Below the pieces are notes generated by a model. That model saw only the letters and a program-made list of their open reading frames with translations. It was not told the DNA's origin and searched no databases. A stretch of DNA of 64,000 bases. Source: Monosiga brevicollis MX1 (taxonomy: Eukaryota). A program made the position numbers and the translations under genes. This document shows positions 38,996 to 63,957 of the stretch, piece by piece (positions within the stretch are counted from its first letter, which is position 1; each line of letters begins with the position of its first letter). The DNA is taken from positions 130,256 to 194,255 of the forward strand of contig NW_001865085.1 of the NCBI RefSeq assembly GCF_000002865.3. Direction: 5' to 3'.

Positions 38996-39405
38996 AAAGA
39001 GATCAAAGCGTCATCAACATCAATGGCTTTGGCTTCGCCTTCTCAATGTTCTTTTGGGGGTCCCTAAGTCAAAAATTGATCGGATGGAACAGGGCATCTT
39101 ATGGGAGGAAGATTGCTATGGAAGTGCGGGCGGCGGGCGGTGATGGAGGGCGGTTATTAGAACGGTCGTCTTTGCTGCCGTTGCTATTCAACGTTCATTC
39201 GCCCTCGGCGTCACTGTCTGAGCCAGAGTCGGTGTCCGTGTCGTCTGCATGTTGAAGTGGGTAGCCAGTTGTCGTAGCATTTTGAAGGAGTGGTCAATGC
39301 AGGGCGGCAACAGTCTTGCTGTCGAGGGCGTTGAAGGCGGCGAGCAGATCCGCCTCGACCTGGTCAAAGCTGCGGTCCGCGCTGTAGCTGTGGCCAACTT
39401 GGTCC

Positions 39406-43353: not shown

Positions 43354-44547
43354 TTACCATGTTGTTGTGGCTAGCGCAAAACCAGCTCGGGAGTCATCCG
43401 TGGGTCCCAAATTCCGCCAAACCCCACCAGCAAGGTCAAGCACGGCGGTTTCGCCCCCGATGATGTTGATGCCTGGAAAATGACTGATGCCAAAGAAAAT
43501 CCAAAGGCTGCCTTGGATAGCAGCGGCACCAAAGTGGGTAAGTCCAACGGATGAAAACTCGTAGGAGAACAGGGACCAGCCCACGGGGGTGAGTTGTTCA
43601 AAGGAGCCAGCGAGGGTTTGGATATGATTTTCGCCTCCCAGGACGAAGACGGTGTTATCAAATACTGCAGCTGCTCCAAATGCGCGAGAAGTGTTAAGGC
43701 TCGGGCCCAAGGACCATGGGGCCCCAGTCGGTAAGGGCGGGCGTGTGAGGACTTGGCGGGAAGCGGCGTGGTCGTGGTTGTAGCCGCCAATGACGAACAG
43801 TGTGTTGTTGTGAGCCACGGTCATGTGCCCGAACAAAGGTTGGAGCAGCGAGGGTTCGGAGCGCCAATTTGCCTCGCCTGGGCCCCACGAGAGGACGGTG
43901 GCGGTGGGCACGCCACTGATGCGGCCCCCAACAACCCAGATGCGTTCTGCCAAGACGGCGGCGGCGAAATCGTACCGTTGTTGCGGCAGATCGGGTACCA
44001 AGCCGGTCGTCCATCCACCGGTGCGGGAAGCAAGCACAAGAGTGGGGGTGTGACTGGAGTCTTGTTGGGGAGTGAGGCCACCGAGGAGGACGATGCGGTC
44101 ATTGTGGGTTACAGCAGCGGCGCGCCACCGGGGGTGGGGTAAGGATGGGCCGTCTCTCCATGTTTGGCCATCAGTGCAACGGACGGAGGAGAGGTTGGTC
44201 GTGGAATCGTAGCCCCCAATAACACATGCAGTGGTGGCAGTAATCGGCGTTGGCATGAGTTGAGCAAGCTGCTGGGCTTGTGCATTGACTTGGGTCTGCA
44301 GGGCGGCAAGGGTGTGGGTGGTGTTGTTGGCATATGCGGACAAGGCGGCGAGCTGAGCGAGCACATCGACGCCATTGAGCAGGATCTTGCCAGGCGGGGA
44401 GACGGTGCCATTGATATGAAGGTTGCCGCTCTCATCGAGGCTGAAGCGAAACTGATCGCTGGGCGGGGTGTTGGCAGCGTTGGTGAAGACAAAAGGGCGC
44501 ACGCAGAGCAGGGCCGCAACCGTGAGCAAACGAAGAAGTTTCGGCAT
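43354..44547 (-). CDS. Secreted Kelch-repeat protein with an N-terminal trimer-like module, intronless
   Basis: Signal peptide MPKLLRLLTVAALLCV; module SLDESGNLHING...KILLNGVDVLAQLAAL; Kelch repeats (VIGGYD, W..GPSL..PR, VLLGG, WVVGG, FVIGGY, FVLGG). Confidence 0.9.
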   Translation of the reverse strand: MPKLLRLLTVAALLCVRPFVFTNAANTPPSDQFRFSLDESGNLHINGTVSPPGKILLNGVDVLAQLAALSAYANNTTHTLAALQTQVNAQAQQLAQLMPTPITATTACVIGGYDSTTNLSSVRCTDGQTWRDGPSLPHPRWRAAAVTHNDRIVLLGGLTPQQDSSHTPTLVLASRTGGWTTGLVPDLPQQRYDFAAAVLAERIWVVGGRISGVPTATVLSWGPGEANWRSEPSLLQPLFGHMTVAHNNTLFVIGGYNHDHAASRQVLTRPPLPTGAPWSLGPSLNTSRAFGAAAVFDNTVFVLGGENHIQTLAGSFEQLTPVGWSLFSYEFSSVGLTHFGAAAIQGSLWIFFGISHFPGINIIGGETAVLDLAGGVWRNLGPTDDSRAGFALATTTW

Positions 44548-45354
44548 GGCATGTGTTGGGCCAGTGATGAAGAAGACAGAGAGCCGAAGGTGGAACCAAA
44601 CGGGCGCAGGTGGCGTGGAGGCGGTGGCTTCGGTGGGTGCAAGGAGGAGTGACGTTGGAGTGCGCAGGCGGTTCGCAGATGACTGGAAGGCCTCTCGACA
44701 CGCCGCCCTTGTCCGGCTGCTCATGTGCAAAGCGATGGGAGCAGAGTGGAGAGATGTGTGATGCGATGCCGTGAGAGGGAGTGAAAGGCGAGGAAGAGAG
44801 GAAGAGCGGATGTGCGTGAAGAAGGGAGAGGTGAGGCAGGGCAGGCGGCAGCGACGCACGAGGGGGAGGCGTCGTGCGTCGCGCGACAAGTGCCGGGAGT
44901 GACGGGGATCAGCGGGTTGATGATAATTGGGCGATATCACCATCGACATGCAGAGATGGGGAGTTAGGGTGGGGATTTATTCAGAGAGTGGGGAGAACGA
45001 GTAAAGCAAATCAGAGAGAGAGCTTGGATTGAGTTCGGTCAAGGAGGAGAAACGTAGCCAAAAAAGAGAAATGATGCGGGTTGAAGACAAAATTCAGAGA
45101 CTGAGGTGAAAATACAGCATGCTCTCAGAGGTTGACTAAAAGGGGGCGGATAGGATAGCCTTTGGACCTACTGCCTGTCAAGGGAGTGGACGTCAGGTTG
45201 GATTGTGCCTCTGTAAGTGTGTTTGGTGTGTGCGCTCGCACCGTCTCAGAGGGGCGTGTGTGTGTCTCCGAGGATCTGATTGCAAAGCGGTGGGTCGCTT
45301 GACACTCGCAGGTGTTCTCCTTCTCGATGCCGGCTGCCATATTGCACCAGAGGA

Positions 45355-45492
45355 AAGGTTTTGTTGAGAGAGATTGAGAGAGTTTGAGAGGTTTTGTTGA
45401 GAGGTTTTGTTGAGAGATTGAGAGAGATTGAGAGGAGTTTAGAAGAGGGAGTGAGAGAAGAGATTGAGTGAATGGAGACTTGAGAGAAGAGA
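45355..45492. repeat. Degenerate GAGAGATT/GAGAGGTTTTGTT low-complexity repeat
   Basis: Direct inspection. Confidence 0.75.
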
Positions 45493-46065
45493 TTTTTGTA
45501 ATTGTACCACATGTGAGCCAGATTGAAGCAAGCTTCTCTATCTTCACATAGTTTACATTCAAGAAGCGCACGCCCCTTATGCTTGATCACAAACGATCGG
45601 ACACCAATGACGTGCACTTAACAACAACAGCCAGAGGACAGCCCACGACATCACACAAGGGTGCAGAGAATAGCACACCCTAAGATGGTTTTAAAGGGGT
45701 TAATAGAGTTAAAGTAGCACACGGTCAAGGTTGATCCTCTATACGGCAGCTGTGTTGAAGGACAGTTTGGAGTCAGAGAGAGAGGAAAATAATTTTCAAT
45801 CAATCCCTTTTTTTTTAAAATTTAAACCGGCAAGGGCCTGGCTGGAAGAAGAGGACATGATGACCCAGCTGATGTGGAGAGGTATGTGGCGATGGCGCTT
45901 GATCGTTGGTGGCGGTGGTTGGGGGAGGAGGGCTAGGGAGGCGGGGGAGGCGGGTGATTGCTGTGGTAGCTGTGGTTGGACGATGGGGGATATGGACGAT
46001 GGTGGATCGAGAGGGATTGCTGCTTCGAACACGATGGTAAGCTGATCTGGTTGATAGGCGTAGGG

Positions 46066-47925
46066 ATGTGGCCGCGTCACCGGTTCTCTTTGGGTCTGGC
46101 AGTGGCAATGGCCCTTGTGCTCGCTAGTAAGCTGGTTGTGCTGTATCCTCGAGGCTCCTTTGGTGCATTGGGATCGTGATGCAGCGTCCCGTTCTCATTT
46201 ACCACGGTGCACAGGCACGGGGAGCCGCGCGGAAATGGTGGTGTACATGGGCGGCTCATGCGAGGACGCCAACGTCACCGTGGACGATGCCTTGCTGATC
46301 TTTGACGCAAACACCACATGCTACAGCGTTATGGGTGGCTTCTACTCCTTTGCTTGCTCGGACAGCGGCGTGCCCGAGGCGTACAAATGGAGCGACTACC
46401 AATGCACCACCGGCACCTTTGTCAACCTCTCCTCTGGCTGCTTCACCTACGGCAGCCGAAACGCCCATGTCATGTGTGCCGAGGCCAGCGTTTTTCCCAC
46501 AAACACAAGGGCCGTCATGTCCGCCTTTGAGGCGGTTGACTGCTCGGCTGGCAAGATTGCGGACCTTGCCATTCGCGACACCTGCGCCAACGCCGTGACC
46601 CCGGCCTTTGCCATTGGCTCGGGCGCGACCAGTGCCGACGCTTGCGACGATGATGATGGCTGTCTAAGATTTTTCCATGATAGCCTGGGATATGGCCATA
46701 TGATGGCGACCTGCTATTCTGATAATACCATCCTGGTCGAGATCTTTAGCGATCAGTGTGACGAGGGCTACTATCATGCCCGCGTGTCTCCGGGAGCCTG
46801 CCTCACCATTGGCGTAAACTACACCGGTGGTTCGTTCGAGCTCCCCCCCCCCCCCCCCCCCCACCTGCTGTCCGGCACTCTTTTTCATGTTGTTTTCGCG
46901 TCCTTGCTGACCCTGCGCCCCCTTTGCCTGTGTGCCCACATGTCAGGAAACACCGCGTTTTTTAATCAGTATGTGGCCGCCGAGCTACTTTCCTTCTCTT
47001 TTACTTGCCTCGACTCGGCCCCCACCGAGCAACCTCCGTCCACGCCCAGCACCCTCTATCTGGGTGGCTCTTGTGACAATGCCACCTCCATTGATCAAGC
47101 GGGGGCCGCGTTTCTGGTTGACGAGTGCTACGAGGTTGCCAATGGCCACTACACGTTTGGCTGTGATGAGAATGGGTACCCCATTGCCAGAGAGTATATG
47201 GATACCAACTGCGGCGGCACCTACGTCTCCACAATTCTCACCGACAATTGCTTTACACAAGTGGATGAAAACTCTCGCATCACCTGCTCCGATGCCACAC
47301 CCACCAGTACCACGGCCTTTATGGGCGCCTACACCTCTGAAAACTGTGGCGATGATGTCATCACCTACGTACCCCTCCGCGACAGCTGCGCAGCCGCCCC
47401 GTCCCTGGCGGTGGCACTGAGCGGCGGCGTCAATGCTTCCGAGCTTTGCAACGGCGATGCCGGTTGCATGGCCTCGTTCCAGTCCGACCTCGGCTATTTG
47501 CGCATTGTCGCCACCTGCCATGCCGACGGCTTGATCAACGTACTCTTTTACACAGAGGACTGCGCCTCCATCAAGCACAACCTCACAGTTTCCGAAGCAG
47601 CGTGCCTGGACGTTGGCACCAATCTCACTGGTGAGTCTCGACTTGTCATTGAGTTTCTCTTTCGCCTCACGCTCAACCTGTGTCTTGACAAGCGGCCTCG
47701 GGCTCACGCTTTGCAACTGCCACAGTGAGCACCTCGAGCTTCAATCAATTTGTCCGAGCTGGACTCGGCTCCCTCTCCTTCTTTTGCATCGATTCTGCCG
47801 CAGCATCAACGACCACCACGACCTCGACAACAACCACATCGTCCGCGACTGCCCCGCTTGCCGCCCTGCCACACATCCTGCTCGTGGCCCTCTTGTGTTT
47901 ACCTCTACTGTTTGTCGCCGCATAA
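46066..47925 (+). CDS. Cys-rich surface glycoprotein with two tandem ~230-aa repeats, a Thr-rich stalk and a hydrophobic, GPI-signal-like C-terminus
   Basis: Signal-peptide exon MWPRHRFSLGLAVAMALVLA. Repeats YMGGSC...CY...YSFAC...RDTC...LGY...ATC and YLGGSC...CY...YTFGC...RDSC...LGY...ATC. Ends STTTTTS...LPHILLVALLCLPLLFVAA*. Confidence 0.8.
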
Positions 47926-48315
47926 GCTCGTCATGGCGCATTTCTATTTTGTTATCATGCATGTTGATGCCCTTTTTAATGGACCATTTCTCTCTCCAAG
48001 GCAAAGAGGATCTGCACCCAGGTGGTTCGGGTAGGACAAAAAGAAAAGAAAAGAAAAGGATCAATCCTGTTGAAATCGATTGGACAAGGAGTGGTCGAGA
48101 CAGCACACTCTCACAATGAGCATTTTTTTTTTTTTTTTCGTGTTTCAAATGATAAGGGAATTGAGCAACGTGCCCGGGAAAAACAAAGTACAGCAGTAAA
48201 GCAACAACAGCTCTCCTGGCAAAAGAGGAAAAGCAACAGCAAAAGCAAAAAACAAGAGAAATCAAGAGCAGAGATGGGGAAGATGAATAATCTTCACAGG
48301 AAATGGCTTGAAGCT

Positions 48316-49647
48316 TTACACGCAGGTGACGAGACGCTTGGTGCCGATCAGACCAGCTTCGGCAGCGGCAGACACAGGCACGAAGCGTTCCGTGTCCGGC
48401 TGGGGATCGGCGGGCTCACCGCTCGTCCCCTCGCGGGGGCGGAAGGGGTGCGGCGCGCCCTCGCCTGACCGGGTGATGCAGCGGGGGTCCACGCCCTGCT
48501 CAGCATCCCACAGCTCACCGTAGGCAAAGACTAGGAAGAGGATGGCGCCGACAAAATAGAAGAAACCGCCGAGCAAGTCAAACCAAATCACGAGCGACTC
48601 GGAGCAGACATCCCGTCGAGCAAAAGGATCGCCTTGGATGGGGGCTTGCAAATCGCGAATGCCGTTCAAGTTGCAAGTCCCCGAAATCATGTAAAAGACG
48701 GAGCCAATAAAAAGCGCCAGTGAACCCCAGAAATAGCTGTTGACAATGCGGGTCCAGAGGGGCCGCTGAAAGTGGTCGGCCGAGTCCACCAGGAAGATGA
48801 AGGTGCCAATGAGAAACCAAGCGCAGGAGCAAAACCAGTTCCACGAGGCGGCGACCGGGTGGCGCTGCAGATAAAAAATTGCATAGGCAAGCAAGAAAAG
48901 CCCTCCCAATGTGAGTGAGAGAACGCCCGTGTGGTATGCCGACCCGGGCCGTCGACTGGGTCGGTCCCAGAGGGTAGAGTAAATGGCGCGGGCTTCGACA
49001 AAGAGCTTGGCCAGGAGAAAGGCAACAACGCCGGCCACCGAGACGTAGACGGCACCATCGTGATCAATGACCTCTTGCATGAGCAATAGGGGGCCTAAAA
49101 AGTAGAGCAGCCCTCCAAGCACAAAAAGCCAACCACCCCACACGTTCAGGTCGTTGTAGTATCGACCCACGCTGCGCCAGAGGCCCCGCCAGCTGTTGAA
49201 GACGCGGAGATGGCGCATGGTCCGGCCCATGATGAGCATGGTGTGAACGACGCCCTTGTGAGCATGAGCATTGCCGACAAAGTCGGGTCGGGGCAGATCG
49301 AGCGTGGAGCCCCACAGGTCGGCCTCGCGCATCAATCGTCGCATGCGGGCTTCGCGCCAGGTCTGGCGTAGGCTGGTCAGCTGGCTGGGGTGGGCCGAGA
49401 GATTGTCGTAGTCTTCGTTTGCGGCGTCGCCCAGGGCTGGTACCGACGCGTTGATGGCCGTGGTGGTGTGAGCAAGTGGGACTGGGGCATCAATGTTGAG
49501 CCACTCTGCTGGGGCAGATGCAGGAGAGCCGCGCTCAAAGGTATTCGTCTCCTCGATCATGGTTTGATCGAGGTCGTGCCCGAGCACAGAGACGATGTGC
49601 TCGGCAGAGCGGGGCGTGGAGTCGGTGGACGGCGGAGTTGGCTGCAT
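48316..49647 (-). CDS. Multi-pass membrane protein, YrhK-like repeats (paralog 1), intronless
   Basis: About 6-7 hydrophobic helices with F..G...F..G patterns (WGGWLFVLGGLLYFLG; LALFIGSVFYMISG; LLGGFFYFVGAILF). Confidence 0.8.
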   Translation of the reverse strand: MQPTPPSTDSTPRSAEHIVSVLGHDLDQTMIEETNTFERGSPASAPAEWLNIDAPVPLAHTTTAINASVPALGDAANEDYDNLSAHPSQLTSLRQTWREARMRRLMREADLWGSTLDLPRPDFVGNAHAHKGVVHTMLIMGRTMRHLRVFNSWRGLWRSVGRYYNDLNVWGGWLFVLGGLLYFLGPLLLMQEVIDHDGAVYVSVAGVVAFLLAKLFVEARAIYSTLWDRPSRRPGSAYHTGVLSLTLGGLFLLAYAIFYLQRHPVAASWNWFCSCAWFLIGTFIFLVDSADHFQRPLWTRIVNSYFWGSLALFIGSVFYMISGTCNLNGIRDLQAPIQGDPFARRDVCSESLVIWFDLLGGFFYFVGAILFLVFAYGELWDAEQGVDPRCITRSGEGAPHPFRPREGTSGEPADPQPDTERFVPVSAAAEAGLIGTKRLVTCV

Positions 49648-50732
49648 GGCGGCGGTTTGCAAGCCACGTGTAGTTTCGTCGTTTCGATGAGGAACAGAAT
49701 TCTCGCTGCAGAGTCAATGCGGACCTTGCGGGGCAGAAGCAGAGGTAGTCTCGCTGCGCTCCGGGTGGGCTTTTTGACGGCACGGCTTGCTGCTGCAGCC
49801 GCGCCGCCAAAGGTGATGCCAACTCATGCCGTGCTCCCAAGCTCTGCTCTAAGACTGGTCAAGGCGTGTGGGGGGAAAAAGGCAGTCAGGGGACGCAGAG
49901 ATGCGCCCGATGAGGTCAGTGGAAAATGCCACTCCCTGGGCTTTGCTGTTTGGATAAAGCAGATGCTTGGCCCGTGGCGGTTGTGCGCATCCGGGAGATG
50001 ATGAGCAAGCGTGGGCCTCGGGACGGGATCATGGGTTGGCTGGTGCATTGTCGGGGGCACGAGCGCAAGCGTGGAGGCGTTTCGAGCCGCTTGGCGTCGT
50101 CAAACCCCATCACGCAGCTGCGTCTTGTGCAAGCCGTTTGGTCGAGGCACCAACCGAACTTGAGGGGACGGAGCGAAGCGGAGCGGGGGGGGGGTGGCGT
50201 GACAACATGAGAGCATGGGCGTGTGGGGTCAGGAAAAAAAGAGTACAAAGCGGTCAGTACCCCCGCTGATAGCGTGGCCGTGGAGCCCCCTACTCCCCCC
50301 TCCCCCCAACAAAGGGGGCAAGCGAGTTCTTGCGGTTGCTCCCGATGAATTTTGTGAAAATTGAACACGAGGTCATCAGTCAGAGTTGAGGTGGGGAGGA
50401 CAAGCACCAGAGGGAGAGAGGCCTTTGATGGGTTCCAAAGCATTACACCTCCTTGCATCCGGCGTCAGTCACGGTCGGTCACGCGACGCGATGGTGTGCG
50501 CATTGAAACCGTTCATCCCACAATCGGACCCAGAGTGCAGCTGCAAAAACCAGCACCAAAATGGTAGGCAACGGTGCAAGGGCACTAGGGAGTGACAGGT
50601 GGCACCATCATCCCTGTCCTTCTCCCCGCTCCCGCTCCCACCCCACCATGTCCTCTTCCTCTCAACCGCGGACCGGGGCCACAAAGCACACACAACACCC
50701 AGCACGAAGCGCCCGCTCTGCCCGCTCTGCTC

Positions 50733-50735
<3 letters not shown>

Positions 50736-50827
<92 letters not shown>
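50736..50827. repeat. (GT)n microsatellite
   Basis: Direct inspection. Confidence 0.97.
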
Positions 50828-50828
<1 letters not shown>

Positions 50829-51755
50829 CAGGGGGGGAATGATGATGCGTCATGTGTGATGTGTGTTGCTTCCGAAGGGGGCTCTTGAATGGGAAACTCA
50901 GCGGGAAACGTTGATGGATTTGTGATTAGGTAATACCATGTCCGCACTTTGTGAAATTGTCAGCATGTGCTTGAGAGAGTGGGGTCATGTGAGGGTGTGT
51001 GTTAGAGGTGAATTGAAGGGGGAAGCAGAGGATGGGGGGTTAGGGGACAAGTGGCAGGGGCCAAGGGGGCAGGGAAAGGGGCAACGGGGCAGCAGGGCAG
51101 CGGGGCAGCGGGGCAGCAGGGAAAGGAGAAGCAGCAGGAAGGCGCTGGCAAGAAAAGCCATGGATGGAGGTCAAATGGCGGAGCCGTGAGGAAAAGCCGT
51201 GCAATCTGTGCCGATCCAATGGTGATCGCTTGCTCCCGAAGAGAGCTTCGAAAGCAACTTGGGGTTCAGCCCGTGGGTACCAATCAAGGGGCGACCAGTT
51301 GATGTTGATGCCGGGCATAGCCCTCCTGGGAGAAAGCCTGATATTACGAGCTTTATGGCCGAGGACGTGATTTTCCAGAAGAAAGTTGAACAAAGTGTTT
51401 CTGGAGTCGACTGGACGGCCCGACCCAAACGCAGGGCGGCACTCAACGCGGCACGAGCCATTGTTGACTGGTGCGGTCGGACGCCTCCGCTGTTAGGGTT
51501 GGAAACGGCCTGTCTGGCCCAGGGCTCACAGCGTCAATTTAGAGATGTCATGAATATTTGATGATTAAAATTAAGAAGTCAAGCTAGGCCAACGGTCATT
51601 GTCGTTGGGAACCCGCTCCACTGGCCGCTCCACGGAGGCCGCGAGCATCGACATCAGAATTATTAATTACAAGCTAAAACCTAACTAGCAAGGCGAGAAG
51701 GGAGGAACAGAGGGGGATTCACTGGAGCAAGTGGCTCGATCCATGATCACGGGCC

Positions 51756-52976
51756 TTAGACGCATGTGACGGTGCGGGTGGCATGGGCATGGTGCTGGGG
51801 AAAGCGCTCGAGGTCAGGCTGTGGATCGTGGTGCTCGTGTTTGGTTCCTTCGCGGGGGCGAAACGGGTGAGGTGCGCGAATGCCGTTGCGGTCTACGCAG
51901 CGTGGATCCGGGCCGCGTCGTGCTTCGTACAGCTCGTCGTAGGCAAACACCAGGAAGAAGACTGAGCCGAGAGTGTAAAGGAGGCCACCCAGAATATTGA
52001 ACCAGGCCACCATGCTCTCGGAGCAGAGTTCCAGGGGGGCAAAGCTGGCCGCCGTCGAGACGGCGCCGTAATCGCGAACACCGCTGAGGTCACACGTTGT
52101 GGAGAAGATGTAAAAGACCGAGCCTAAGAAGAGGCCGAGCGCACCCCAGTAATAAAAATTGCTGAGCTGCGCAAAGAGGGGCCGGGAAAATTGAGCAGCT
52201 GAGTCGATGCTAAAGACAAAGGTTCCAAAGAGAAAGCCAACGGCAGAGAGGAAGGAGCACCACGAGGCGCTCCGCGGATCATCACGGAGGCTGAGGATGG
52301 TGGTTGCTAGAAAGAAGAGGCCACCCACAGTGAGGGAGATGACGCTCACGTGAAAAGCTGTGCCTGGTCGACGCGTTTTGCGTTCCCAAAGCGTGGCGTA
52401 GATGGCGCGGAGCTCGACAAAGATTTTGGCAAAGAGAAAGAGCACCACGCCCACCATGAGAATAATACTGGAACCATCTGCCGAGACGTGCTTGTTCTTG
52501 CTAAGCCAGGGCCCCAGCGTAAAGAGGATGCTGCCCACCACAAAGCACCAGCCGCCCCAGACGTCGAGGTCGTTATAGTAGCGGCCAACGTTGCGCCACA
52601 GAGTCCGCCAGCTCTTGAAAATGTGAAGATGGTTCATGGTCGTGTCCATGAAGAGCATGGTATGAACGACGCCCCGGTGCTCGGTGGCATTGCCCTCAAA
52701 GTCTGGCGTCGGGAACGAGCTGTTGTTGGCGCCCCAAAGCTTGGTGTCTTGTTCTATTTCGGCGCGGTAGCGGCGTTGGGCCAGAGCCAGAGGCGTCTCG
52801 GCACCACCCACACCGTTTTCGGACAGGCGACCCACGGACACGGGTGAATGTGTTACAAGGTGGCGCCCAACGCAATCCGCCTCTGGTGCGTCTGCGCTGA
52901 CAGTGCCAGCCCCGTCGGCGTGCCACTTCGGTTCTGCGCGGGCCCCACTGGAGGCTCGCACGTTCTGGTTTGACAT
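51756..52976 (-). CDS. Multi-pass membrane protein, YrhK-like repeats (paralog 2), intronless
   Basis: Collinear with 48316..49647 (PDF.GNA..H.GVVHTML, VGRYYNDL.VWGGW, CSES, PHPFRPREGT...DPQPD.ERF, VTCV*). Confidence 0.85.
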   Translation of the reverse strand: MSNQNVRASSGARAEPKWHADGAGTVSADAPEADCVGRHLVTHSPVSVGRLSENGVGGAETPLALAQRRYRAEIEQDTKLWGANNSSFPTPDFEGNATEHRGVVHTMLFMDTTMNHLHIFKSWRTLWRNVGRYYNDLDVWGGWCFVVGSILFTLGPWLSKNKHVSADGSSIILMVGVVLFLFAKIFVELRAIYATLWERKTRRPGTAFHVSVISLTVGGLFFLATTILSLRDDPRSASWCSFLSAVGFLFGTFVFSIDSAAQFSRPLFAQLSNFYYWGALGLFLGSVFYIFSTTCDLSGVRDYGAVSTAASFAPLELCSESMVAWFNILGGLLYTLGSVFFLVFAYDELYEARRGPDPRCVDRNGIRAPHPFRPREGTKHEHHDPQPDLERFPQHHAHATRTVTCV

Positions 52977-53330
52977 GCTGGCAACATCAAGGCAAGGCTA
53001 AACGCGGTCAAGAGAGCGGGGCAAGAGAAAGGAGGCGTGTTGGTGGGTCAAGAGAAACAGCAGCAACAGTGGCAGCCGACCGGGGTCCGCGCTGAGATGG
53101 GGTCAGAGGGCAGCCAAACAGCCCTACACGGTGTGACGATCGATCCCAGCCGAGCCAACAGACACGTGGTAAATGCCTTGCCCTGTCCGTCTCCTCGCCC
53201 AGTAGTAAGGGCAAGGTTGGCTCCCCGATGGGAAAACCATGACGTTGGCTCTCCCACACAAGAGAGAGAGGACTCCAAGGACGTTGTGCTGTGTATTTCG
53301 TTTGTAAAAGAGCGTGGGGGTAAATGTGTG

Positions 53331-53332
<2 letters not shown>

Positions 53333-53424
<92 letters not shown>

Positions 53425-53428
53425 GTGA
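53333..53428. repeat. (GT)n microsatellite
   Basis: Direct inspection. Confidence 0.97.
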
Positions 53429-53614
53429 GTGAGCGAGCTTCTGGGCCAGGGTGAAGAGGGGGAGGCAGAGTACAAATGGGGTCTCATGGGTCAGCGGGGT
53501 GGTACTCATCAGCAGAAAGAGTTCAGCGGGCAAAACACGGCGACCCAGCGTAGGCGCTGTACCAGATCAATTATTGAAAATGTGTTTGCTTAGCGGGTGT
53601 ACAACAGGAAGGCG

Positions 53615-54981
53615 CTAACAGTAGCATTGCTGGTTGTTGACACAGGTCGAAGAGCTCAGGGGGCTAAACTGTGTTGTAATGGCGTTGACGTCGAGATCCT
53701 CATTGCGGCAAATCAGGATGCTGCCCGTCACTGCCGTGAGGCCGGAGAGGGCGTCCAAATTCTCCAGCTCCGAGTTGTACTAGCGTCATTGGCGCAGAGC
53801 AGGCATCGAGTCGGTGAGAGTGCGTGCGCAAAGTGTGGGGTGACTGCAAAGACCCTGCAGCTGCGCAAGCTTACCTGAATCTTTAGATTCCCATTGATGA
53901 CTGTCAGGCCTTCCAACCCCGTTAGAGATTCCAGCTCCGGGTGAGTCTAAAGACCAAGGTGTGGCGTAGGAGGATACGGCGAGTTGAGCCTAGCAAATTT
54001 AAACTCACACTCGGCCAGGGCTTATGATAGCAAGCGGGCGATTCCTTCCTTACTTGGATCTGCAAATGCGTGCCAATGTGCCGCAGGTTGGCTAGGCCGC
54101 TGATGCTGGCTAGGTCCTCGTTATCCTGACAGCCAAAAGAAAAAAAGAAAAAAAAAAAGAAAAAAAAGAACAATACTATCAATGTAACACGGCTGTCAAT
54201 AACGCGGATCCACGCACATAATAGAGACGCACAAAGAGGGTCAGATACGATCCGATGGACGTCAGGCTGGCAAAGCCGTCAAGATTGGTGATTTTATCTG
54301 CCGCCTATAGCAGACAATCGGTGTGATTGTGACGACCTCAGAGCGTGGGCTTGGTAGCCAGGGCGCAAACAAGCCACAAAGAAGAACGGCGTACATAGAT
54401 AGTCAAAGAACCGCCGATCGAGGCGAGGCTCGCAAACCCATCAACGTTCGTAAAGACTCGGTCTTCCTAAAGCATCGAATCGGGAGGAGGCACAAAAAAA
54501 AAAAGTGAAGTTCCAAGCCAGGACCGCTGCGGCAGAGCTGGCCGGGCCAAGGTAAGACGCAGACACGTGTGGGCCTTACGCGAATCAGGAGATTGCCAGT
54601 GATGGTGGCAACATTTTCAAAGACGGAGAGATTGGCCGTGACGAGCCCGGAACAGCTGTAAAGGGAGACGTCTCCGTCAATGCTGGTTGTATTCCGTGGC
54701 AGGACGCTCAGATCGCAACCCACATTCCCGGTATACACGTATTGCGGAATGGTCGTTGTCATCGTCAGCGCTGTTGTGCCCACTAACATTTCGAGCTTCT
54801 CCTTTAATGACGCTATCTCCTGAAGAATATCACGCCCATCGAGAAGAACACGCGCCTGCGAGCCAGAGGTGTTAATGTACAAGTTGCCTTCGTCATCGGT
54901 CGCGATGATGGGTGGAGGACTGGCCGAAACACTCGCGCAGACCACGCCCAGCGTCAACAGGAGCATGCACCACCCCGCCAT
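53615..54981 (-). CDS. Secreted Receptor-L/LRR-solenoid protein with 1 N-terminal trimer-like module (6 exons)
   Basis: Exons 54580-54981, 54395-54466, 54233-54304, 54054-54125, 53875-53946 and 53615-53779, all GT-AG and phase 0. Repeat consensus xNxxLxxLxGLxxLxxIxGxLxI. Ends TCVNNQQCYC*. Confidence 0.85.
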
Positions 54982-55603
54982 CCCGAATCGCGCAAATCGC
55001 TCGTTGCTAAACGCCCGAGCCCCAAAAAAAAAAAAATACAAGCACGCCACACATCAGACAGCGCTTCTTGTTCTCAATCCAAAATCCCTCACAGCCACGC
55101 CACCAGTCAAGGAAAAAATTTGAAAACAATGCAATTATGTAGATAACCAGCCCCAAACCCAGGCACGCCAGCGCCTCCCTCGCCGACACGCCCCGACCCT
55201 GACATGCACGTACCCCGCCGCCCAAATCGCCGCGACCCGGCGTCCGGTGTTCCAATCAACTGTTGTCAAGTTGTAAAGTACTGTTGCGAACGGTCACGTT
55301 GATTTCCTTTATACCCAAACTGCGTCGCTCTCTAAATTTGAACGGCCTGGTTGCGCTTTCTCTAAGCAGGTTCCATCCTGGCAAACGATCTCTGGATTTG
55401 CCTTGACAGGGTTCGGAAGTGTAAAAAGCATCAAGTCACACTCTCTACATGTCTACTCTTCACCCTCACCTCTCTCTGTATCAACACGCATTTCTTCCCG
55501 CTTCTCTGGCCTCATGTCCCGCTTTTGCTGACAACATCCTGCCTTGACTAATATAAAGGCTTAACCTATATGCGATGTGGTCCTGCCCCGCCGCTCCGTA
55601 GAC

Positions 55604-55877
55604 CCTGAATGCCTGAATGCCTGAATGCCTGAATGCCTGAGAGCTTAAGTACCTGAGTGCCTGAATGCCTGAGTGCCTGAATGCCTGAGAGCCTGGGAGC
55701 GTGAGAGCTTGAGTGCTTGTGTGCCCGGGAGCGTGAGAGCTTGAGTGCCTGAGAGCCTGAGAGCCTACATGCCTGAGAGCCTAAATGCCTGAGAGCCTGA
55801 ATGCTTGAGTACCTGAGAGCTTGAGAGCCTTGAGTGCCTGAATGCCTGAGTGCCTGAGAGCCTGAGTACCTGAGTGC
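55604..55877. repeat. 8-bp minisatellite (CCTGAATG/CCTGAGAG/CTTGAGTG variants)
   Basis: About 30 degenerate 8-mer units visible. Confidence 0.92.
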
Positions 55878-56330
55878 CGACTGGCCGCGAATTTCCCCGA
55901 CCCGCTGGCTACGACTTGCTGGCTCCTGCAACTTGCCGAAGGCTATTTTGGAATCGTATGTAGACACGCCCCTTTCATCTTGTCCGTGTGCGGGCTCTCG
56001 TCTGCGTGTGCTCTTGGACTGCTCTCGCTCGCTTCTGTTGTCGCTTGCGCTCTTGATGCTCCCCTGTGCGTGCTTGTGGGTGAGGATGCGTTGGTGACGT
56101 GGGGAGGAGTACAATCGGTCTTGCGGCACACACATGATGGTCTCAGCTGCACTCCATTGGCGCATCGTGAATAGACTATGGATACAGCTCGCTTTCCCTG
56201 TTTGGCGCGAAAGCCCAGCGCAGCCGTGAAGCTCCTCGGTATCAGGCTTCCTCCTGCACATGACTCGCCACTTGTTCTAGTACCGCCTTTGACCTTATCC
56301 CGTCTTGCTCGATGAACTGCTTCTAGGCAT

Positions 56331-57208
56331 CATGACTGCGGCCTTGGGCCTACTCTCGGACGCGGCGAGTCCACGCAGCGCCCTCCTCGTCACCACCGAG
56401 GTGTGCCACGCAGAACACGAGACGCTCCCTCCAAACTTTCCACCGTCCCCAGGACTTTTATTCTATACCCCAAACGGCTGCCATGAGCTCTTCGGCCTGT
56501 ATTTCAAGTATGCGTGCCCAGGCTTTATCAGCTATGCGCCCCACATCTCTCTCTATGATGACGCAGAATGCACGGAGCACATCGACGAATTTGTTTTGCC
56601 ACCCGATCATTGCTTTGGGCAACACTTGATGGCTTGCGCGCCCGCCTTGCCTAAAAACGTCACCGCCACGCTCGCCTATCACAATGACGCCTCGTGCTCT
56701 GACGATGCCCAGTTGACAGCAACGATGCTCCGGACCGCCTGTCCAACCACCTCGAGCCTCGCCATGGCCCTCTACGGCGACAGTATTGACAGCGTCTGTC
56801 AGGGTGATGCTGACTGTCCACGTCGGCTCCAAGGAGAGTATCTCTACACAAAGGTGACCGGGCAATGCTCAGGCCAACAGCTCTGGCTGACGGGGCATGC
56901 CGAAGATTGCCAGAGCGAGGTCTTCCATGTGGCTGTACCTGCACACGAATGCGTCGCCTTGGACTCATATGTCAAGGGTAGGTGTGTCAAGCCAAGGTCT
57001 CAAGATTCCATCATACGCCCACCTCACCCGCGCTCGCGACCCTGTCGTAGATGTTTCATTATCAAGCTTGGCCCAGACCTTGCAAACCACCGAGGAGCAG
57101 CTGTACATCACTTCAACCTGCGAGCAGAGCAGCGCCAGCTGGCCAGGGCCCTCAGCTGCCCTTTTGCTGATCTTTGGTGTTTTGAGCCTGCTTGCCACCA
57201 TCAGCTAG
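56331..57208 (+). CDS. Cys-rich surface protein with a single repeat and a GPI-signal-like C-terminus (paralog of 46066..47925); 5' exon uncertain
   Basis: C..FKYAC...Y....C...CF....AC...LRTACP...LAMAL..C.GDADC...L...V...C. Intron position matches the repeats of the 46-48 kb gene. Ends SSASWPGPSAALLLIFGVLSLLATIS*. Confidence 0.7.
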
Positions 57209-57376
57209 TACCAGCGTTTTGTTGTGTTGAGTCCGGTATCGGGCCAGAAAGTTTGCATCATCCAGCTTGGTCTGACCCATCCCGCATATTATTCAATTGA
57301 CATGACATCGGGAAGGTGTGACGTCATTCTTTTGACACAATGATGCTCTGCATACAAGACACGCCTCATCACAATT

Positions 57377-59945
57377 TCAACAATCGCTGCAATTTCTTGC
57401 AAAGCAGTACTTGGGAGCCGCGGCGTCGCCAAGCCCAGCCATCTTGTCTTGAGTGACGATTAGGTTCAACAAGGCGTTGTCGCAGACTCGTAGGTACGTG
57501 ACCACCGTCGTCAGGTTACTGAGCCCATCAATCTTCTCGAGAACCGAGTTTCCCTTGACCCAGGAGCAACAAGTTTCAGCATGAGAGCTTCGGACCGGGC
57601 TGCTTTTGACACATTAGACAAGCCCGCGGGACAAACCCGCAATTCAAAGGATGTGATGCTGGTGAGACTTTCAAAACCAGCTAGCAGGCTAAGCCGATCA
57701 TTGTGCTGCAGCAGGGGGAAAGGACGGATTGAGAAATTCTGGCATGGCTAATAAAAGGTTTATCAACGGAGAGACACGTACACGGACACTCATGTCAGAG
57801 CCCAGTTGTGGCAGTTTGTCAAACCCGGAGATGACAGTGAGATTGTCGTTGCTCTGTGGCGTGCAAGCGCAAATGTGTAAATGGAGGTGCAGAGGAAACC
57901 GGCGCCGGCGCCCTTTGTGTCAGAGTGTGATCTGAACAGAGGGCAGGTCTCAAAGGTTGTCGCATCCACCAACCCCAATGTGGAGATAACTGCCAATCAT
58001 CGTCAGGTTACCAAAGCCTGCGATCGAGGTGAGCGCCGGATTGTCCTGAACACAGCGCAGGCATATCGTGAGTGCGTTCCTCTCTACCACCCTGGCACTT
58101 GACAGCACAGGCCCACCTTCACATCCAAGTCGGTCTGAATGGCTTTGAGATTGCCCAGCCCATCAAGGTGCTGTAGCGCCTTGTTATTCTATGAGGCGGG
58201 AGGGCAGCGACGTCGCTGTAATAAGCTGCCTCGTGATACACACGTCTACCCTATCCCCCGTCGTTGAACATGCAAAGAGAAATGAAAGTAAGCAAAGCAG
58301 AATCAACGACTTTCTTGCCGTACGTAGATGAGGAGGTAGTTGCCGATATGCGTGAGGCCAGCGAATCCATTGAGATTGCTGAGACTGTCATGATTCTAGA
58401 ATTGACCAAACGTCGGGTCATGACAGTGCTTGGTCGACGCTGTAGAAGCTTGTCCTTGCTGGCTCACCTCTATGCGAACGTATTCATTGACGTGCTTGAG
58501 TTGTTCAAGCCCCGCGAGATCCTGCAGGACGTGATTCATCTACCTCGCACCATCGTGAGATCATGTCAGGGCGAGAGGCGAGCACAGGAAGCAAAGCCCA
58601 CGCATAAGGGGCCTCACGCCAAGCGTCAAGAAAGCCCCAATGCGGGTCAGGGCTTGCAGACCATGCAGGTTGGTGAGTTTGACATTCGCCTACCACGGGT
58701 CCCGGCAGCCATGAGCACACATTGCAAGGTCGTTTGCCCAGGGGGTTGCGTTGGAGGGCTCACCAGGATATAGAGTTGTTTGCCAATGGACGACAAAGCT
58801 GCCAGCCCATTGATGTTGGTCAGCTGATAGTTGTTCTATTTTGGCGACAGGCATGCGCCCCCGAACAGTTGATCGCACATCTTGGCGTGAGGCAGGTGGG
58901 AGGCGGCAAGGCCTTTGCAATGCCGGAAGGGATTCGACGCACAGAAATGTGTAGGTAGCCACCAATAACCGACAGGCTGGCCAAGCCATTCAAATTAACC
59001 AGGGCTCCGTTTCTCTGAGACCCACACCAAGCCGCGGAAGGGTGCCATGAAGATGGGCAGCAACGGGCGAGGAGGGGAATGGCGGATGCGTAGTTCCTTC
59101 CCTTGACATGCATCAAGGGAGATCGGATGACAGACCTCTATCCGGACGTTTCCGGTGACGTTGCGCAGCTCGACAAGTACGAGCAGGTCGCTCGCTAGCA
59201 GAGCACTGCAACCAGACAGGATAAGATCGCCTCTTATTTCCGTGACGCCAGCAGGCACATTGCTGAGGCTGCACGAGCTTATATTGGGCGAGATCACGGG
59301 CTCAAGACTTGTGGTTGTGGGAGCTGGTGAGGAGGTGAAGATGCTGGTGGTGCGGCCAGCCAGCGCAGCGACAGCCTGCTGCAAGATCGCGAGCTCATCC
59401 AGCAGCGGCAACCCATTGACTGATACTTTCCCGGATCTGCTGCTGTTGAGAATGACATTGCCAAGGGGGTCCAGCGTCATTTCGGCCTGAACGGTTGGAG
59501 AGTTGGCCATGACGCCGGGAGGCGACGATGTAAGCGCTGGGACAAGAAGCTCTATTTGCGCTCGCAGCAGCAACAACTCGGCGCGGACGTCAATGCCATT
59601 GAAAAGAACCGTGCTGCCATTCAAGTGCAAGCCACCGCCATCATCGACGCCAACGGTGACATCCTCAACACTCGAACCAGCCACAGGGGTGGCAGCCGGG
59701 GTCGAGGTCGAGGTCATGGCCGTGGGGGTAGTCCAATCAGAGAAGGCGGCCGTGGCATTCTGTTTCAGGGCGCCTAGCTGCGCCACAACGTCAACGCCAT
59801 CAACCAATACACGTTTCGAGCAGTTGACATGCAGTCGACCTGAATCGTCCACAATCAAGTGGCCATCCAGCACCAGCGCCCTGATACCACCGATCAGCAA
59901 CACCGCCGCCAGCAGCTGCAAAAGCCGTACCCCTCTCCATGCCAT
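57377..59945 (-). CDS. Secreted Receptor-L/LRR-solenoid protein with 3 N-terminal trimer-like modules (11 exons)
   Basis: Exon 1 is 59136-59945. Internal exons of 72 bp span 58943-59014, 58764-58835, 58618-58689, 58468-58539, 58324-58395, 58117-58188, 57974-58045 and 57782-57853, plus a 69-bp exon at 57637-57705. Last exon 57377-57553 ends YCFARNCSDC*. Confidence 0.88.
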
Positions 59946-60037
59946 CACCGAACACTTTGGAGTAATCTTCGTCGTCGACCAAGTCCACCCCTGACATCCC
60001 AAGCCATGGATCGGCCAGCGCTCAAACAGGACCGCCC

Positions 60038-60070
<33 letters not shown>

Positions 60071-60239
60071 GTGCATTTGTCGAAGTTTGTCTGACAACTT
60101 GGAAACTGAGATGATGAAGAGAGGAGAGAAAGGGAGAGGAGAGAAAGGGAGAGAAAGGTAATAACACAACTACCACATGTAAAGGGGGATCAATTGGAGA
60201 GGGTATACACAATGACACTAACTACCACATGTGACAACA

Positions 60240-60316
60240 GGAAACAAAAGAAACAAGAGAGAGAGAGAGAGAGACGAAAAGAGAGAGAGAGAGAAGAGAG
60301 AAACTGAGAGAGAGAG

Positions 60317-60370
<54 letters not shown>

Positions 60371-60412
60371 ATTGGTTTGGTTTGGTCGGTTTGAGAAAGA
60401 GAGAGAGAGAGA
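60240..60412. repeat. GA-rich / (GA)n tract in the divergent intergenic region
   Basis: Direct inspection. Confidence 0.9.
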
Positions 60413-60727
60413 GCGTGTGCGTGAGATAGGATGAGGGAGTGGAATCAAAGGAACCAGCAGTAGGAGGAGGACATGGGCTGGAAATGGCGGCGTGGACGAG
60501 GAGATTGGGATGGCGGTGGCACGGGGCTGGAGTGCCAGAGGGGATGGTTGTCGGAAAAGTGGGCAATGAGAGGAGCAGCAGGGGGTGATTGGATACCCAA
60601 CGGTTAGCTCAATACCAGCGTGTGTGTGTTGTGTTGGTGAGTGGTGTGTTTCATGCGAACATGGCGTGGCTCATTTTTTTTGCGTGGGCGTGCTCCTCTT
60701 CTTGGGAGTGATCGATCGATCGCGGTG

Positions 60728-63700
60728 ATGGGGCGCCAGAGTTGCAAGTCGCAGCAATGGGGCCGGTCCTTGGTGCTCATGGCCCTGGCCATGCTGCTGG
60801 CCGGGACGGGAGCACGGCCGACCATGCGCTTGGATGCCGTTGGGAACTTGCGCATCGACACCGGTCCGACCGAGACGGCTGCCAGCGTCTTGCTCAACGG
60901 CGTCGATGCCGTTGGGGCCCTGACCACCCTGCGGCGGGCGATTGCTAATCTGGGCGGCCACATCATCGAGCCTGCTCCCCTTATCAAGGAGCCTGTCGAG
61001 GCAGCCAAGGCTCGCTTTGCCCTGAATGAGTGTGGCCATCTCGTCCTCAACAGCAGCGCGGGCCGAGGCGTTCTGTTGAATGGGATGGACGTCCTGCACG
61101 AGCTGACGCTCCTCCAGCAAGCCACAGAGGCCCTAGCGTCGAGTGCTGCGATCGAGACGGCCTCCACGGCCTCAAGCGCCTCGGTGGCGCCTGTTTCCGC
61201 TTCCTGTTCTAAGCTGATGGATGCGAGGGCCGAAAATTCCATCACGGTCGACTCTGTGGGCAACGTTCATCTCAATTCGAGCGGGATGCAGGCCATATGG
61301 CTGAATGGGCTGGATTTTCTCAGCGCGCTGACCGAGCTGCAAGCCGCGGTCACCCGTCTGGAGCAAGCCACCACGGCGTCTCCGAGCACCTCACCGGTCC
61401 CCGTCCATGTCCATGTGGGCAACGTGGGCTGTGACCTGTCCGCAATCCCGCCCACCACTGCCACCATCCAGGGGAACCTGATGCTCGACCAATGCGGGGA
61501 CGCGTTCACGGGGGCCGGGATGATGGTCTTGAGCCACCTCCAGCGGGTTGAAGGGTCTGTATCCATTTCGGTGCGTCGAATTCGGCACCAACCCAACCTC
61601 TTGAATGCGACCATGATACACGATGCTGTCTGGGACGGTGCTTCACCCTGAGCCCCTCTTGTTCGACGCTAGGGCAATGCTGCTTTGACCCACGTGGATG
61701 GTCTGAGCAACCTCTATTACATCAGTGATAGCCTGACGATTGGCGTACGTGCTGTCGATGCCGTCCAACTGACGCAACCGTTCTTCTTGTGTTTCTGTGT
61801 TTCCGTGTTTATTTACTGACACTTTGATTTTTTTTTCTCCTTGGCAGAACAATGCTGCTTTGACCAGCGTGGATGGTTTGGGGCATCTGATCGACATCGG
61901 CGGCTCCTTGACAATTTCTGTATGCCGACACACACCTATTTTACAGCAAAGCGGCGTGCAAGGTCATGCCCGCATGTTCTCAACCACAATAATGGGTCTG
62001 TGTGACAGGAAAATATGCAGCTGACCGACATTGATGGCTTGAGTGGTCTCAAGTCTATTCCTGGCCATGTTTATCTCTCCGTACGTCAGACGCATCATTC
62101 CGAGCTTTGCAAGGAAAAAGCCGGGACGCTCTTTGGATGGGTATCACCCCTTCAATCATACTCACTCTGGTTTCAACGGTATTATTATCAATATCATTTT
62201 TATGTTTTTCGCAGAACAATGCCCAGCTCACCAATGTATATGGCTTGAACAATCTCCACAACATTAGCGGCAGCTTGCAGATTAACGTGTGTACCTTTGT
62301 GACGGTTTGCCCTGCCCCTGGGCACCATGGCGCTGTCACCCGTTCTTACTTCCTTCTTGGCATGTTTGATCCCTTTGTTCGCAGAACAATGACAACTTGT
62401 TGAACGTGGATGGCTTGAACAATCTCCACATCATTGGCGGCGGCCTGCAGATCAACGTGTGTACCTTTGTCGCGTTTTGATCTGCCCCTGGGCGCCATGG
62501 CTGTCACCACACGTTCTTACTTCCTTCTCTTTGCATGTTTGATCCCTTCGTTGGCAGAACAATGACAACTTGTTGAACGTGGATGGTCTGAGAAACCTCA
62601 GCGCCATTGGCAGCTTCTTGGCAATTTCGGTACGATTACAGCAAGTTTGCGTGCACTCAACCCCAAATGCATGATCGGCTTTTCTCAACCACCAATGGTC
62701 CACGGGACAGAGCAACATGTTACTCACCAACGTTGATGGGTTGAGCGGTCTTGGATCCATCCCGGGTTACCTTAATCTTTACGTACGGTACAGAGCCTGC
62801 CTTGCAACAAAGCAATCAAAGTGTCCTTTGGAAGAATGATTGTTCTTACAAGGCATATTTGCGTAGAACAATGCCGCCCTGTCCAACTTACGCGGTCTGA
62901 ACAGCATTTCCTCCATTGGCCTAGACCTGGCGATTTCTGTATGTGCTGGCAGCAACCTTGGTGGCGTTCTAATTTTGTCCTCACCCTGTAAAACGTTTTT
63001 CGGCAGGCCAATGCCGTTTTGAGCAACGTCGACGGGCTTGGCAGTGTTACGAGCACTGGTGGTCGCTTGTATCTCCAGGTACGTTGTTGAGGGTGTCTCA
63101 TGCTGATGTTGCAGGGTTGGGTCCTGTCCGTCACATTTGGTGTTTCACTGGCTTGATCAGACCAATGTTGCCCTGTCCAATGTTGACGGGCTTGGGAATA
63201 TCATCAGCGTTGGAGGTGACTTGATCGTGCGGGTATGTTTCTGTCCGAGCAAGCCGCGGGTCTAGCCCTCAACCCAATTGGGCTGGTGGTGCGCACTTCT
63301 GAGCGTCTCATGCGGAGGTACATTGCTGGCTGGTAAAGAACAATGTTGCGCTCACCAATGTGGATGGGCTTCGGAGTCTTATAAGCTTTGTTGGCGACTT
63401 GGTCATCTGGGTTTGTCGTCGTTTGCGAGCATGTCATGCCAATGTTTTGTCTGCGCGAGAGCAGTTCGCATTATTTGAAGGTGTACTTTCAAACGTCTTA
63501 TGTGATGCTCTACTGATCGGGGCAGGGTAACGTCGCCTTATCCAATGTGAATGGGCTCATGGGCCTCACAAACGTTGGTTACCTCTTCTTCCACGTACGT
63601 TGTCGCGTGCTGGCGCCATGGCGGTGCTGTGGACTGGTGGACGGAAAGCCGATCAGGATAATGACGTTCCTTCAGGCGTCTCATCGGTTCTTTCTGCTGA

Positions 63701-63957
63701 CCGGACAGAGCAACCACGCCCTGACCAACGTGTACGGGCTTTCGAACCTCCAAAGCGTCGGTGGCTATTTGTTGATTGATGTATGTTGCGCGAAGGCTTG
63801 GCGTGCTGATGTTACAGTGTTGAGTGATGATCGGCGCAACGGGTGAAAATGTATAATCGTCTTGTGCTTTTGCCGGCTGGTGCAGTACCATGCCAGCTTG
63901 ACCAATCTTGATGGGCTGGGAAGGCTCACAAGCGTTGGTGACTACTTGAGCATCAAT
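60728..63957 (+). CDS. Secreted Receptor-L/LRR-solenoid protein with 3 N-terminal trimer-like modules; 14+ repeat exons, continues past window end
   Basis: Exon 1 is 60728-61570. Phase-0 repeat exons start at 61673, 61848, 62009, 62215, 62385, 62558, 62711, 62867, 63007, 63161, 63339, 63526 (69 bp), 63709 and 63886. All are GT-AG bounded and free of stops. Confidence 0.9.

What the first reader, a model, noticed from the sequence alone, without database searches (positions are those of the whole stretch)
43354..61370. A shared ~40-aa 'beta-hairpin + coiled-coil' module caps four secreted proteins with different recognition domains (cubilin-N-terminus-like)
Seen in sequence: eight copies of one motif follow the signal peptides. 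Kelch gene (~44330-44450): SLDESGNLHING..KILLNGVDVLAQLAAL. 54 kb gene: TDDEGNLYINTS..RVLLDGRDILQEIASLKEKL. 59 kb gene, three copies: DDSGRLHVN..RVLVDGVDVVAQLGAL; DDGGGLHLNG.TVLFNGIDVRAELLLL; DPLGNVILNSSRSGKVSVNGLPLLDELAIL. 60.7 kb gene, three copies: DAVGNLRID..VLLNGVDAVGALTTL; NECGHLVLNSSAGRGVLLNGMDVLHELTLL; DSVGNVHLNSSG..IWLNGLDFLSALTEL. Each copy ends in a heptad-like helix and a Thr/Ser/Pro linker. Established knowledge: the cubilin N-terminus (GNLVF...GKIKLNDEDL..L..I) trimerises as an intertwined beta-helix plus coiled coil and docks on amnionless. Inference: this is a portable oligomerisation/docking module displaying interchangeable heads (Kelch propeller or LRR solenoid). Such proteins could be collectin- or cubilin-like multivalent capture proteins for prey or pathogen recognition. 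None of the three complete proteins has a TM helix or GPI signal, so a membrane co-receptor may anchor them.
Basis: partly seen in the sequence, partly recalled or inferred. Interest (0 to 1): 0.88.

Follow-up and report, generated by a model that had tools for sequence, protein, structure and literature searches.

The report
Choanoflagellate one-or-three trimer cap
Four neighbouring genes of a choanoflagellate, and about 90 related proteins, carry a small, apparently undescribed domain, mostly as one copy or three; it likely joins predicted secreted binding proteins into threes, as the start of the animal receptor cubilin does, but kinship with cubilin was not shown.

Summary
The window has exactly eight copies of a ~45-aa module (three strands plus a heptad helix) behind signal-like peptides in four Monosiga brevicollis genes. 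The heads are of two kinds, not four: one Kelch propeller and three Receptor-L-domain solenoids built from 72-nt exons. The module is a real, portable family: 89 of 150 database proteins examined carry it, fused to about ten head types, and no Pfam family describes it. Of 20 multi-copy proteins, 11 have three clear copies and none has four. AlphaFold2 folds the three copies of gene D confidently as one unit (pLDDT 85.5, pTM 0.80). A trimer is therefore the best reading. No homotrimer prediction was obtained. Cubilin was not hit by sequence profile, and fold searches were uninformative. Verdict: an apparently undescribed, probably trimerising cap of choanoflagellate secreted proteins; cubilin-like in design, homology open, no anchor identified.

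The parts
43354..44547 (-). Gene A: single ORF, 397 aa; signal-like peptide, one module, extended helix, Kelch propeller
   Evidence: protein held letter for letter in the protein collection and the Atlas; expression not tested
44296..44451 (-). Module copy A
   Evidence: single-copy AlphaFold2 model pLDDT 91, helix 37-72 of 73
53615..54981 (-). Gene B: 6 exons, 284 aa; signal-like peptide, one module, Thr-rich linker, Receptor-L-type solenoid, Cys cap
   Evidence: 4 of its 5 introns among the joints displayed, and a poly-T loose end at 53554
54757..54912 (-). Module copy B
57377..59945 (-). Gene C (MONBRDRAFT_30356, re-modelled): 11 exons, 543 aa; three modules, Receptor-L solenoid, Cys cap
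   Evidence: 5 of 10 introns among the joints displayed, including three that the database model lacks
59709..59864 (-). Module copy C1
59505..59660 (-). Module copy C2
59331..59486 (-). Module copy C3
60728..63957 (+). Gene D, incomplete at the window end: three modules in exon 1, then 14 repeat exons (13 of 72 nt, one of 69 nt)
   Evidence: spliced contigs cover it and continue past 63957; the exon-1 contig differs at 14 sites
60818..60973 (+). Module copy D1
61010..61165 (+). Module copy D2
61235..61390 (+). Module copy D3

Best explanation
The module is a portable ~45-residue domain of predicted secreted choanoflagellate proteins, and three copies likely lock together into one unit, a small beta head on a three-helix coiled coil. 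Single-copy proteins (genes A, B) would assemble as homotrimers that display three heads. Three-copy proteins (genes C, D) are predicted to fold the same unit from one chain and display one long head. A single-chain version gains no avidity, so the three-fold unit itself probably also serves as a handle for a shared partner; this step is inferred only, at about 0.35. Shown: module, heptad pattern, portability, copy counts, splicing of B, C and a D-like transcript. Predicted: the three-copy fold. Inferred: homotrimer, secretion, docking, ligand binding.
For: Copy number: of 20 multi-copy proteins (18, P0015 and gene D), 11 have three clear copies; one has two plus a degenerate third and one has two plus a third cut at the record end (both by eye); 7 show two or fewer but begin inside a copy or end within about 25 residues of one; 0 have four. 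In P0004 two copies are 80% identical, which hints at a separate recent triplication. AlphaFold2 on gene D residues 28-226 with 19 sequences: pLDDT 85.5, pTM 0.80, five models 80.8-85.5, low confidence only in the linkers. The single copy gives pTM 0.60 with a bare 36-residue helix. Heptad pattern. Secretory context: 77 of 89 carriers have a hydrophobic stretch before the first copy, 83 of 89 start it by residue 80, 2 of 89 have a later 19-mer at hydropathy 1.9 or more and neither looks like a TM helix; 36 of 54 copies have an N-x-S/T sequon at one loop position. Heads by Pfam, 31 of 85 scanned: Receptor L 11, Kelch 7, SBBP 3, DUF5074 2, one each of FG-GAP, EPTP, NHL, PQQ_2, LRR_5 (under its cut-off), ALK glycine-rich, Kazal, TIG.
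Against: 71 of 89 carriers have one copy by the HMM count, which says nothing on their state, and 10 have two by that strict count. Reading those as fragments or missed third copies is my by-eye judgement. Many records are short gene fragments, so a fourth copy could be missed. The triples are not all independent: D and P0005 pair copy by copy, as do P0008 and P0010; the tree has 44 columns and 4 of 30 well-supported branches. I could not inspect the model coordinates, and no two- or four-copy or shuffled control was folded. No experimental data.
Confidence: 0.68

Rival explanations
1. The module is a true homologue of the cubilin N-terminal domain, a shortened pre-animal form, and anchors these proteins on an amnionless-like membrane partner.
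For: Same order of parts: signal peptide, short strands, coiled coil, ligand-binding head; cubilin's is a three-chain intertwined beta-helix plus coiled coil (PMC6283879, passages). The two cubilin motifs quoted in the finding fit 11 of 15 profile columns with a positive score and sum to 16.4 bits; 0 of 168 null segments reach that. Both Atlas searches put the same kind of unnamed 104-aa eukaryote cluster first (0.88, 0.84), a lead only.
Against: Three profiles and two single queries did not list 6GJE at E up to 10. The motif score is below all 53 family members scored (minimum 19.7, median 41), misses the near-invariant Gly (52 of 54) and an always-hydrophobic column, and the motifs were recalled and chosen for likeness. 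0 of 150 proteins held from the searches carry the EGF pattern tested. All 7 carriers with an organism name are choanoflagellates. The module is C-terminal in 3 proteins.
Confidence: 0.3
2. Each copy is not a closed trimer piece but a sticky end: three-copy proteins cross-link single-copy proteins into mixed, branched assemblies or a cell-coat mesh with many different heads.
For: One genome holds several carriers with different heads (genes A-D plus P0005, P0021, P0095) and a strongly conserved core, so mixing is possible. Drosophila cubilin trimers are reported to contain two paralogues (PMC8710305, passages).
Against: The AlphaFold2 model satisfies all three copies within one chain, and a cross-linker would not need exactly three copies.
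Confidence: 0.15
3. The module is a monomeric or dimeric cap, pro-domain or sorting tag: a PEGA-like beta-hairpin followed by an ordinary amphipathic helix; triplication is incidental.
For: 2 of 85 carriers hit PEGA above its cut-off across the module strands. The single copy folds confidently alone.
Against: The PEGA hits cover only profile positions 2-22 of 71. The copy counts and the packed three-copy model are not explained.
Confidence: 0.12

Closest known systems
Cubilin N-terminal region in the cubam receptor (PDB 6GJE; PMC6283879)
   Same: Short beta strands plus coiled coil directly behind the signal peptide of a protein with no TM helix; three copies per unit (shown for cubilin, predicted here).
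   Different: No detectable sequence hit; three strands plus a turn per copy in the models; heads are Kelch, L-domain and other propellers, not EGF/CUB; occurs as in-chain triples and at C-termini; no amnionless partner known.
Collectins, C1q-type proteins and other neck-trimerised recognition proteins (recalled, not tested)
   Same: A small trimerising neck presents interchangeable recognition heads in soluble secreted proteins.
   Different: No collagen region and no C-type lectin or C1q head among the Pfam hits; the neck lies N-terminal and has a beta head.
Receptor L domain, PF01030 (heads of genes B, C, D)
   Same: Pfam hit above cut-off for gene C; weak match to IGF1R (E 0.12); Cys cap.
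   Different: A soluble, long, uninterrupted solenoid with one 24-aa rung per 72-nt phase-0 exon; no furin-like, TM or kinase part in B and C.
Phage spike / T6SS triple beta-helices (likeness to cubilin noted in PMC6283879)
   Same: Possible intertwined three-chain beta architecture.
   Different: No support: PHROGs at most 1 of 54 members per family, no phage tblastn match, no viral fold match at E 0.001.

Membership tests
Cubilin N-terminal domain | Sequence similarity to cubilin residues 36-120 (6GJE) | tested here: inconclusive
   Not listed at E up to 10 with profiles A1, A3, A5; quoted motifs score 16.4 bits, below all members, above a weak null; no profile-profile test, since no tool returned a cubilin sequence
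Cubilin N-terminal domain | Three chains intertwined into a beta-helix | tested here: inconclusive
   Three-copy model is confident but coordinates could not be inspected; single-chain fold libraries gave no clear match
Cubilin N-terminal domain | Coiled coil following the beta head | tested here: met
   Heptad pattern in 54 copies; helices in both models
Cubilin N-terminal domain | Followed by EGF repeats and CUB domains | tested here: not met
   Heads are Kelch and L-domain in the window; no EGF or CUB family in 85 carriers scanned; EGF pattern in 0 of 89 carriers
Cubilin N-terminal domain | Docks on amnionless | not testable with these tools
   No whole genome held; no amnionless query available
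Receptor L domain (PF01030), heads of B/C/D | Pfam score above the curated cut-off | tested here: met
   Gene C model 36.8 bits against 21.8; B and D share the repeat pattern but their spliced forms were not scanned
Kelch propeller, head of A | Kelch_1 repeats above cut-off | tested here: met
   E 2e-21, 4 stretches
PEGA domain | Full ~70-residue beta-sandwich | tested here: not met
   Only positions 2-22 of 71 matched, in 2 of 85 proteins; 0 of the 8 window copies; a helix follows instead

The most novel reading that the evidence does not exclude
The module is the pre-animal ancestor of the cubilin trimer domain: a universal three-fold plug that choanoflagellates attach to dozens of different secreted binding heads, including exon-per-repeat variable solenoids, so that all dock on one amnionless-like membrane adaptor. 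That would be a modular capture or uptake system from which animals kept one member.
Probability: 0.15. Interest if true: 0.9.

Novelty: new variant of a known kind. Interest (0 to 1): 0.62.

Why it matters
[quoted passage not shown] That makes a testable candidate set for how choanoflagellates sense prey, pathogens or each other, and a 45-residue natural trimer tag with a natural single-chain form. If it proves homologous to cubilin, it would date the cubam architecture to before animals.

Tried and rejected
Fold searches: three-copy model against PDB by Foldseek, 0 of 50 matches at E 0.001; by VIA wide, best Z 5.1 (gp41 five-helix bundle, rmsd 7.0, 120 aligned) and Z 4.0 (Beclin BARA, rmsd 4.4, 104 aligned), both in the common range; viral library 0 of 147 at E 0.001. 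Single-copy model: only long-helix matches, Z up to 3.9. These libraries hold single chains, so the absence of 6GJE excludes nothing. Pfam on the 8 copies: no family shared by two. CofB beta-repeat hit in P0004 is under its cut-off, 1 of 85; not pursued. 61 of the 149 hits were dropped as partial matches, mostly repeat proteins of propeller type. Word-index protein searches added only P0150 and P0156. Metagenome contig scan with gene D: 0 of 596 candidates confirmed; bacterial and viral contig collections were not scanned for the module. No run is on record as RNA. Expression of gene A was not obtained. Literature: no paper for choanoflagellate + receptor L domain + secreted, amnionless + Monosiga (72), the five-term cubilin homology search (73) or five accession strings (102); some searches gave listings that looked unrelated by title and abstract start. 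Accessions were not found in the 2 held supplements of PMC8592570; its expression tables were not among them and could bear on induction by bacteria. The cubilin alignments of PMC6283879 and PMC8710305 are figures and could not be read. The flanking GPI-like genes were considered as anchors; only adjacency supports this, so it is not claimed.
Full report
Source. The window is eukaryotic and intron-rich. The top database hit for the module, P0002, is the model of the 59-kb gene, and its sources name it MONBRDRAFT_30356 of Monosiga brevicollis. No whole genome was held.

Observation. A pattern scan of six frames gives eight copies. A profile built from 73 aligned copies, these eight included, finds the same eight at 42-60 bits and nothing else above 6 bits. 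They lie in four genes: A (43354-44547, minus, one copy, Kelch), B (53615-54981, minus, one copy), C (57377-59945, minus, three copies) and D (60728 to beyond 63957, plus, three copies). In 54 aligned copies the pattern is strand, Asp-x-x-Gly turn, strand, variable loop, strand, Asn-Gly turn, then a helix; Asp 49, Gly 52, Gly 52 and Asp 51 of 54 are near-invariant, and the helix has hydrophobic residues at a 3-4 spacing. 36 of 54 copies carry an N-glycosylation sequon at one loop position.

Heads. B, C and D share one head type: 24-residue repeats that Pfam files under Receptor L domain (gene C model, E 5e-9), with a weak match to IGF1R. Each internal repeat is one phase-0 exon: 25 exons of 72 nt and 2 of 69 nt. 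Core positions are fixed while positions 20, 22 and 24 take 9-13 different residues among 25 repeats; that these face a ligand is inference. Two D introns are 84% alike against a median of 50%, a sign of recent exon duplication. Contigs of three runs (RNA only by guess) skip introns at the predicted GT-AG sites: 4 of 5 for B, 5 of 10 for C and 3 of 14 for D among the 15 joints displayed, 3 of which belong to a neighbouring gene; 15 more were not displayed. One B contig ends in poly-T. The joints correct the database model of C, which omits an exon and has another C-terminus. The contig over D exon 1 differs at 14 sites and leaves the window's sequence after 62080, so it may come from a near-identical paralogue or allele. 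A, B and C have no TM-like or GPI-like end by hydropathy.

Family. The eight-copy profile found 149 proteins at E up to 0.001 among 1.84 billion. With P0150, 89 of 150 carry a full module, genes A and C included; 61 were dropped as partial matches. 77 of 89 have a hydrophobic stretch before the first copy and 83 of 89 start it by residue 80. Pfam names a head in 31 of 85 scanned: Receptor L 11, Kelch 7, SBBP 3, DUF5074 2, and FG-GAP, EPTP, NHL, PQQ_2, LRR_5, ALK glycine-rich, Kazal and TIG once each. In P0107, P0108 and P0116 the module is at the C-terminal end. Of 30 carriers looked up, 6 bore an organism name: four M. brevicollis, Salpingoeca kvevrii, S. urceolata; P0150 is S. rosetta. The other 24 are unnamed, so the range beyond choanoflagellates is unknown. 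No Pfam or PHROGs family describes the module.

Why three. The strict HMM count is 71 single, 10 double, 8 triple and 0 higher. Reading the 20 multi-copy proteins in alignment: 11 have three clear copies, P0038 has two plus a degenerate one, P0057 has two plus a third cut at the record end, and 7 show two or fewer but begin inside a copy or stop just behind one. No protein shows four, and none shows exactly two between a signal-like peptide and a head. The triples are partly related (D with P0005, P0008 with P0010), but two copies of P0004 are 80% identical, which hints at a separate triplication; the tree is weak. AlphaFold2 on the three copies of D gave pLDDT 85.5 and pTM 0.80 with three equal strand-strand-strand-helix units and doubt only in the linkers. 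A pTM of that size implies that the copies are placed against one another (inference; coordinates not seen, no control folded). One copy alone gave pLDDT 91 and pTM 0.60 with an unpaired 36-residue helix. No homo-oligomer prediction could be obtained.

Mechanism. Most likely three copies form one unit. A and B would be homotrimers with three heads, and C and D single-chain pseudo-trimers with one longer head. Since the single-chain form gains no avidity, the unit itself probably has a job, such as binding a common partner or anchoring in the cell coat. For cubam, the three cubilin chains contact an asymmetric amnionless differently (PMC6283879, passages), and Drosophila trimers hold two paralogues (PMC8710305, passages), so an asymmetric pseudo-trimer is compatible with docking. 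This is analogy, not evidence for these proteins. Ligands are unknown. M. brevicollis does mount a transcriptional response to Pseudomonas (PMC8592570, passages), but I found no data on these genes.

Cubilin. It works like the cubilin N-terminus in layout, but membership was not shown. 6GJE did not appear at E up to 10 with three module profiles or two single queries. The motifs quoted in the finding score 16.4 bits on the profile: above 168 of 168 null segments from window reading frames, but below all 53 members scored, and they miss two of the most constrained columns. The null is small and the motifs were recalled and picked for likeness. Fold searches were uninformative because they compare single chains. 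EGF and CUB heads are absent. I put homology at about 0.3.

Novelty. The searches showed no paper on this module; the library is incomplete. Earlier notes of this scan held no look-alike; one note on exon-per-repeat ankyrin genes in the same genome is a parallel to the solenoid heads and was not checked. Trimerising necks with swappable heads are a known kind of design (collectins, recalled; cubilin, read), so I rate this a new variant of a known kind: an apparently undescribed domain family with an unusual one-or-three copy pattern. Interest 0.62.

Noticed in passing
window 46.0-47.9 kb (+) and 55.9-57.2 kb (+): Two paralogous cysteine-rich genes (27% identity, E 2e-13) with no Pfam family at a useful E-value; both appear to end in a Ser/Thr-rich stretch and a hydrophobic tail, as GPI-anchored proteins do. 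Each lies next to a module gene; the second is spliced and overlaps the 3' end of gene C in RNA-like contigs.
   Followed up: partly
window 53875-54466, 57637-59014, 61673-63957: One exon per 24-aa solenoid rung (72 nt, phase 0), with variable outward positions and a recent exon-plus-intron duplication in gene D (introns 62287-62384 and 62457-62557, 84% alike).
   Followed up: partly
window 60745-62247: RNA-like and DNA-like contigs differ from gene D (14 sites in exon 1, 10 of them changing a residue) and diverge after 62080: a near-identical paralogue or allele with other repeat exons probably exists.
   Followed up: partly
window 48319-49713 (-) and 51759-52997 (-): Two paralogous multi-pass membrane ORFs, 54% identical, with YrhK-like Pfam hits.
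   Followed up: no
window 39388-42888 (+): Long ORF with an RZ-type zinc finger (E 9e-12), as in RNF213-like proteins (family link recalled).
   Followed up: no
proteins P0107, P0108, P0116, P0038: The module also occurs C-terminally or internally, behind Kazal, TIG or cysteine-rich regions.
   Followed up: partly
protein P0005 (M. brevicollis MONBRDRAFT_12489): A three-copy, L-domain paralogue of gene D whose 1430-aa database model runs on into Myb and phosphatase-like regions; it looks like a fused gene model.
   Followed up: no
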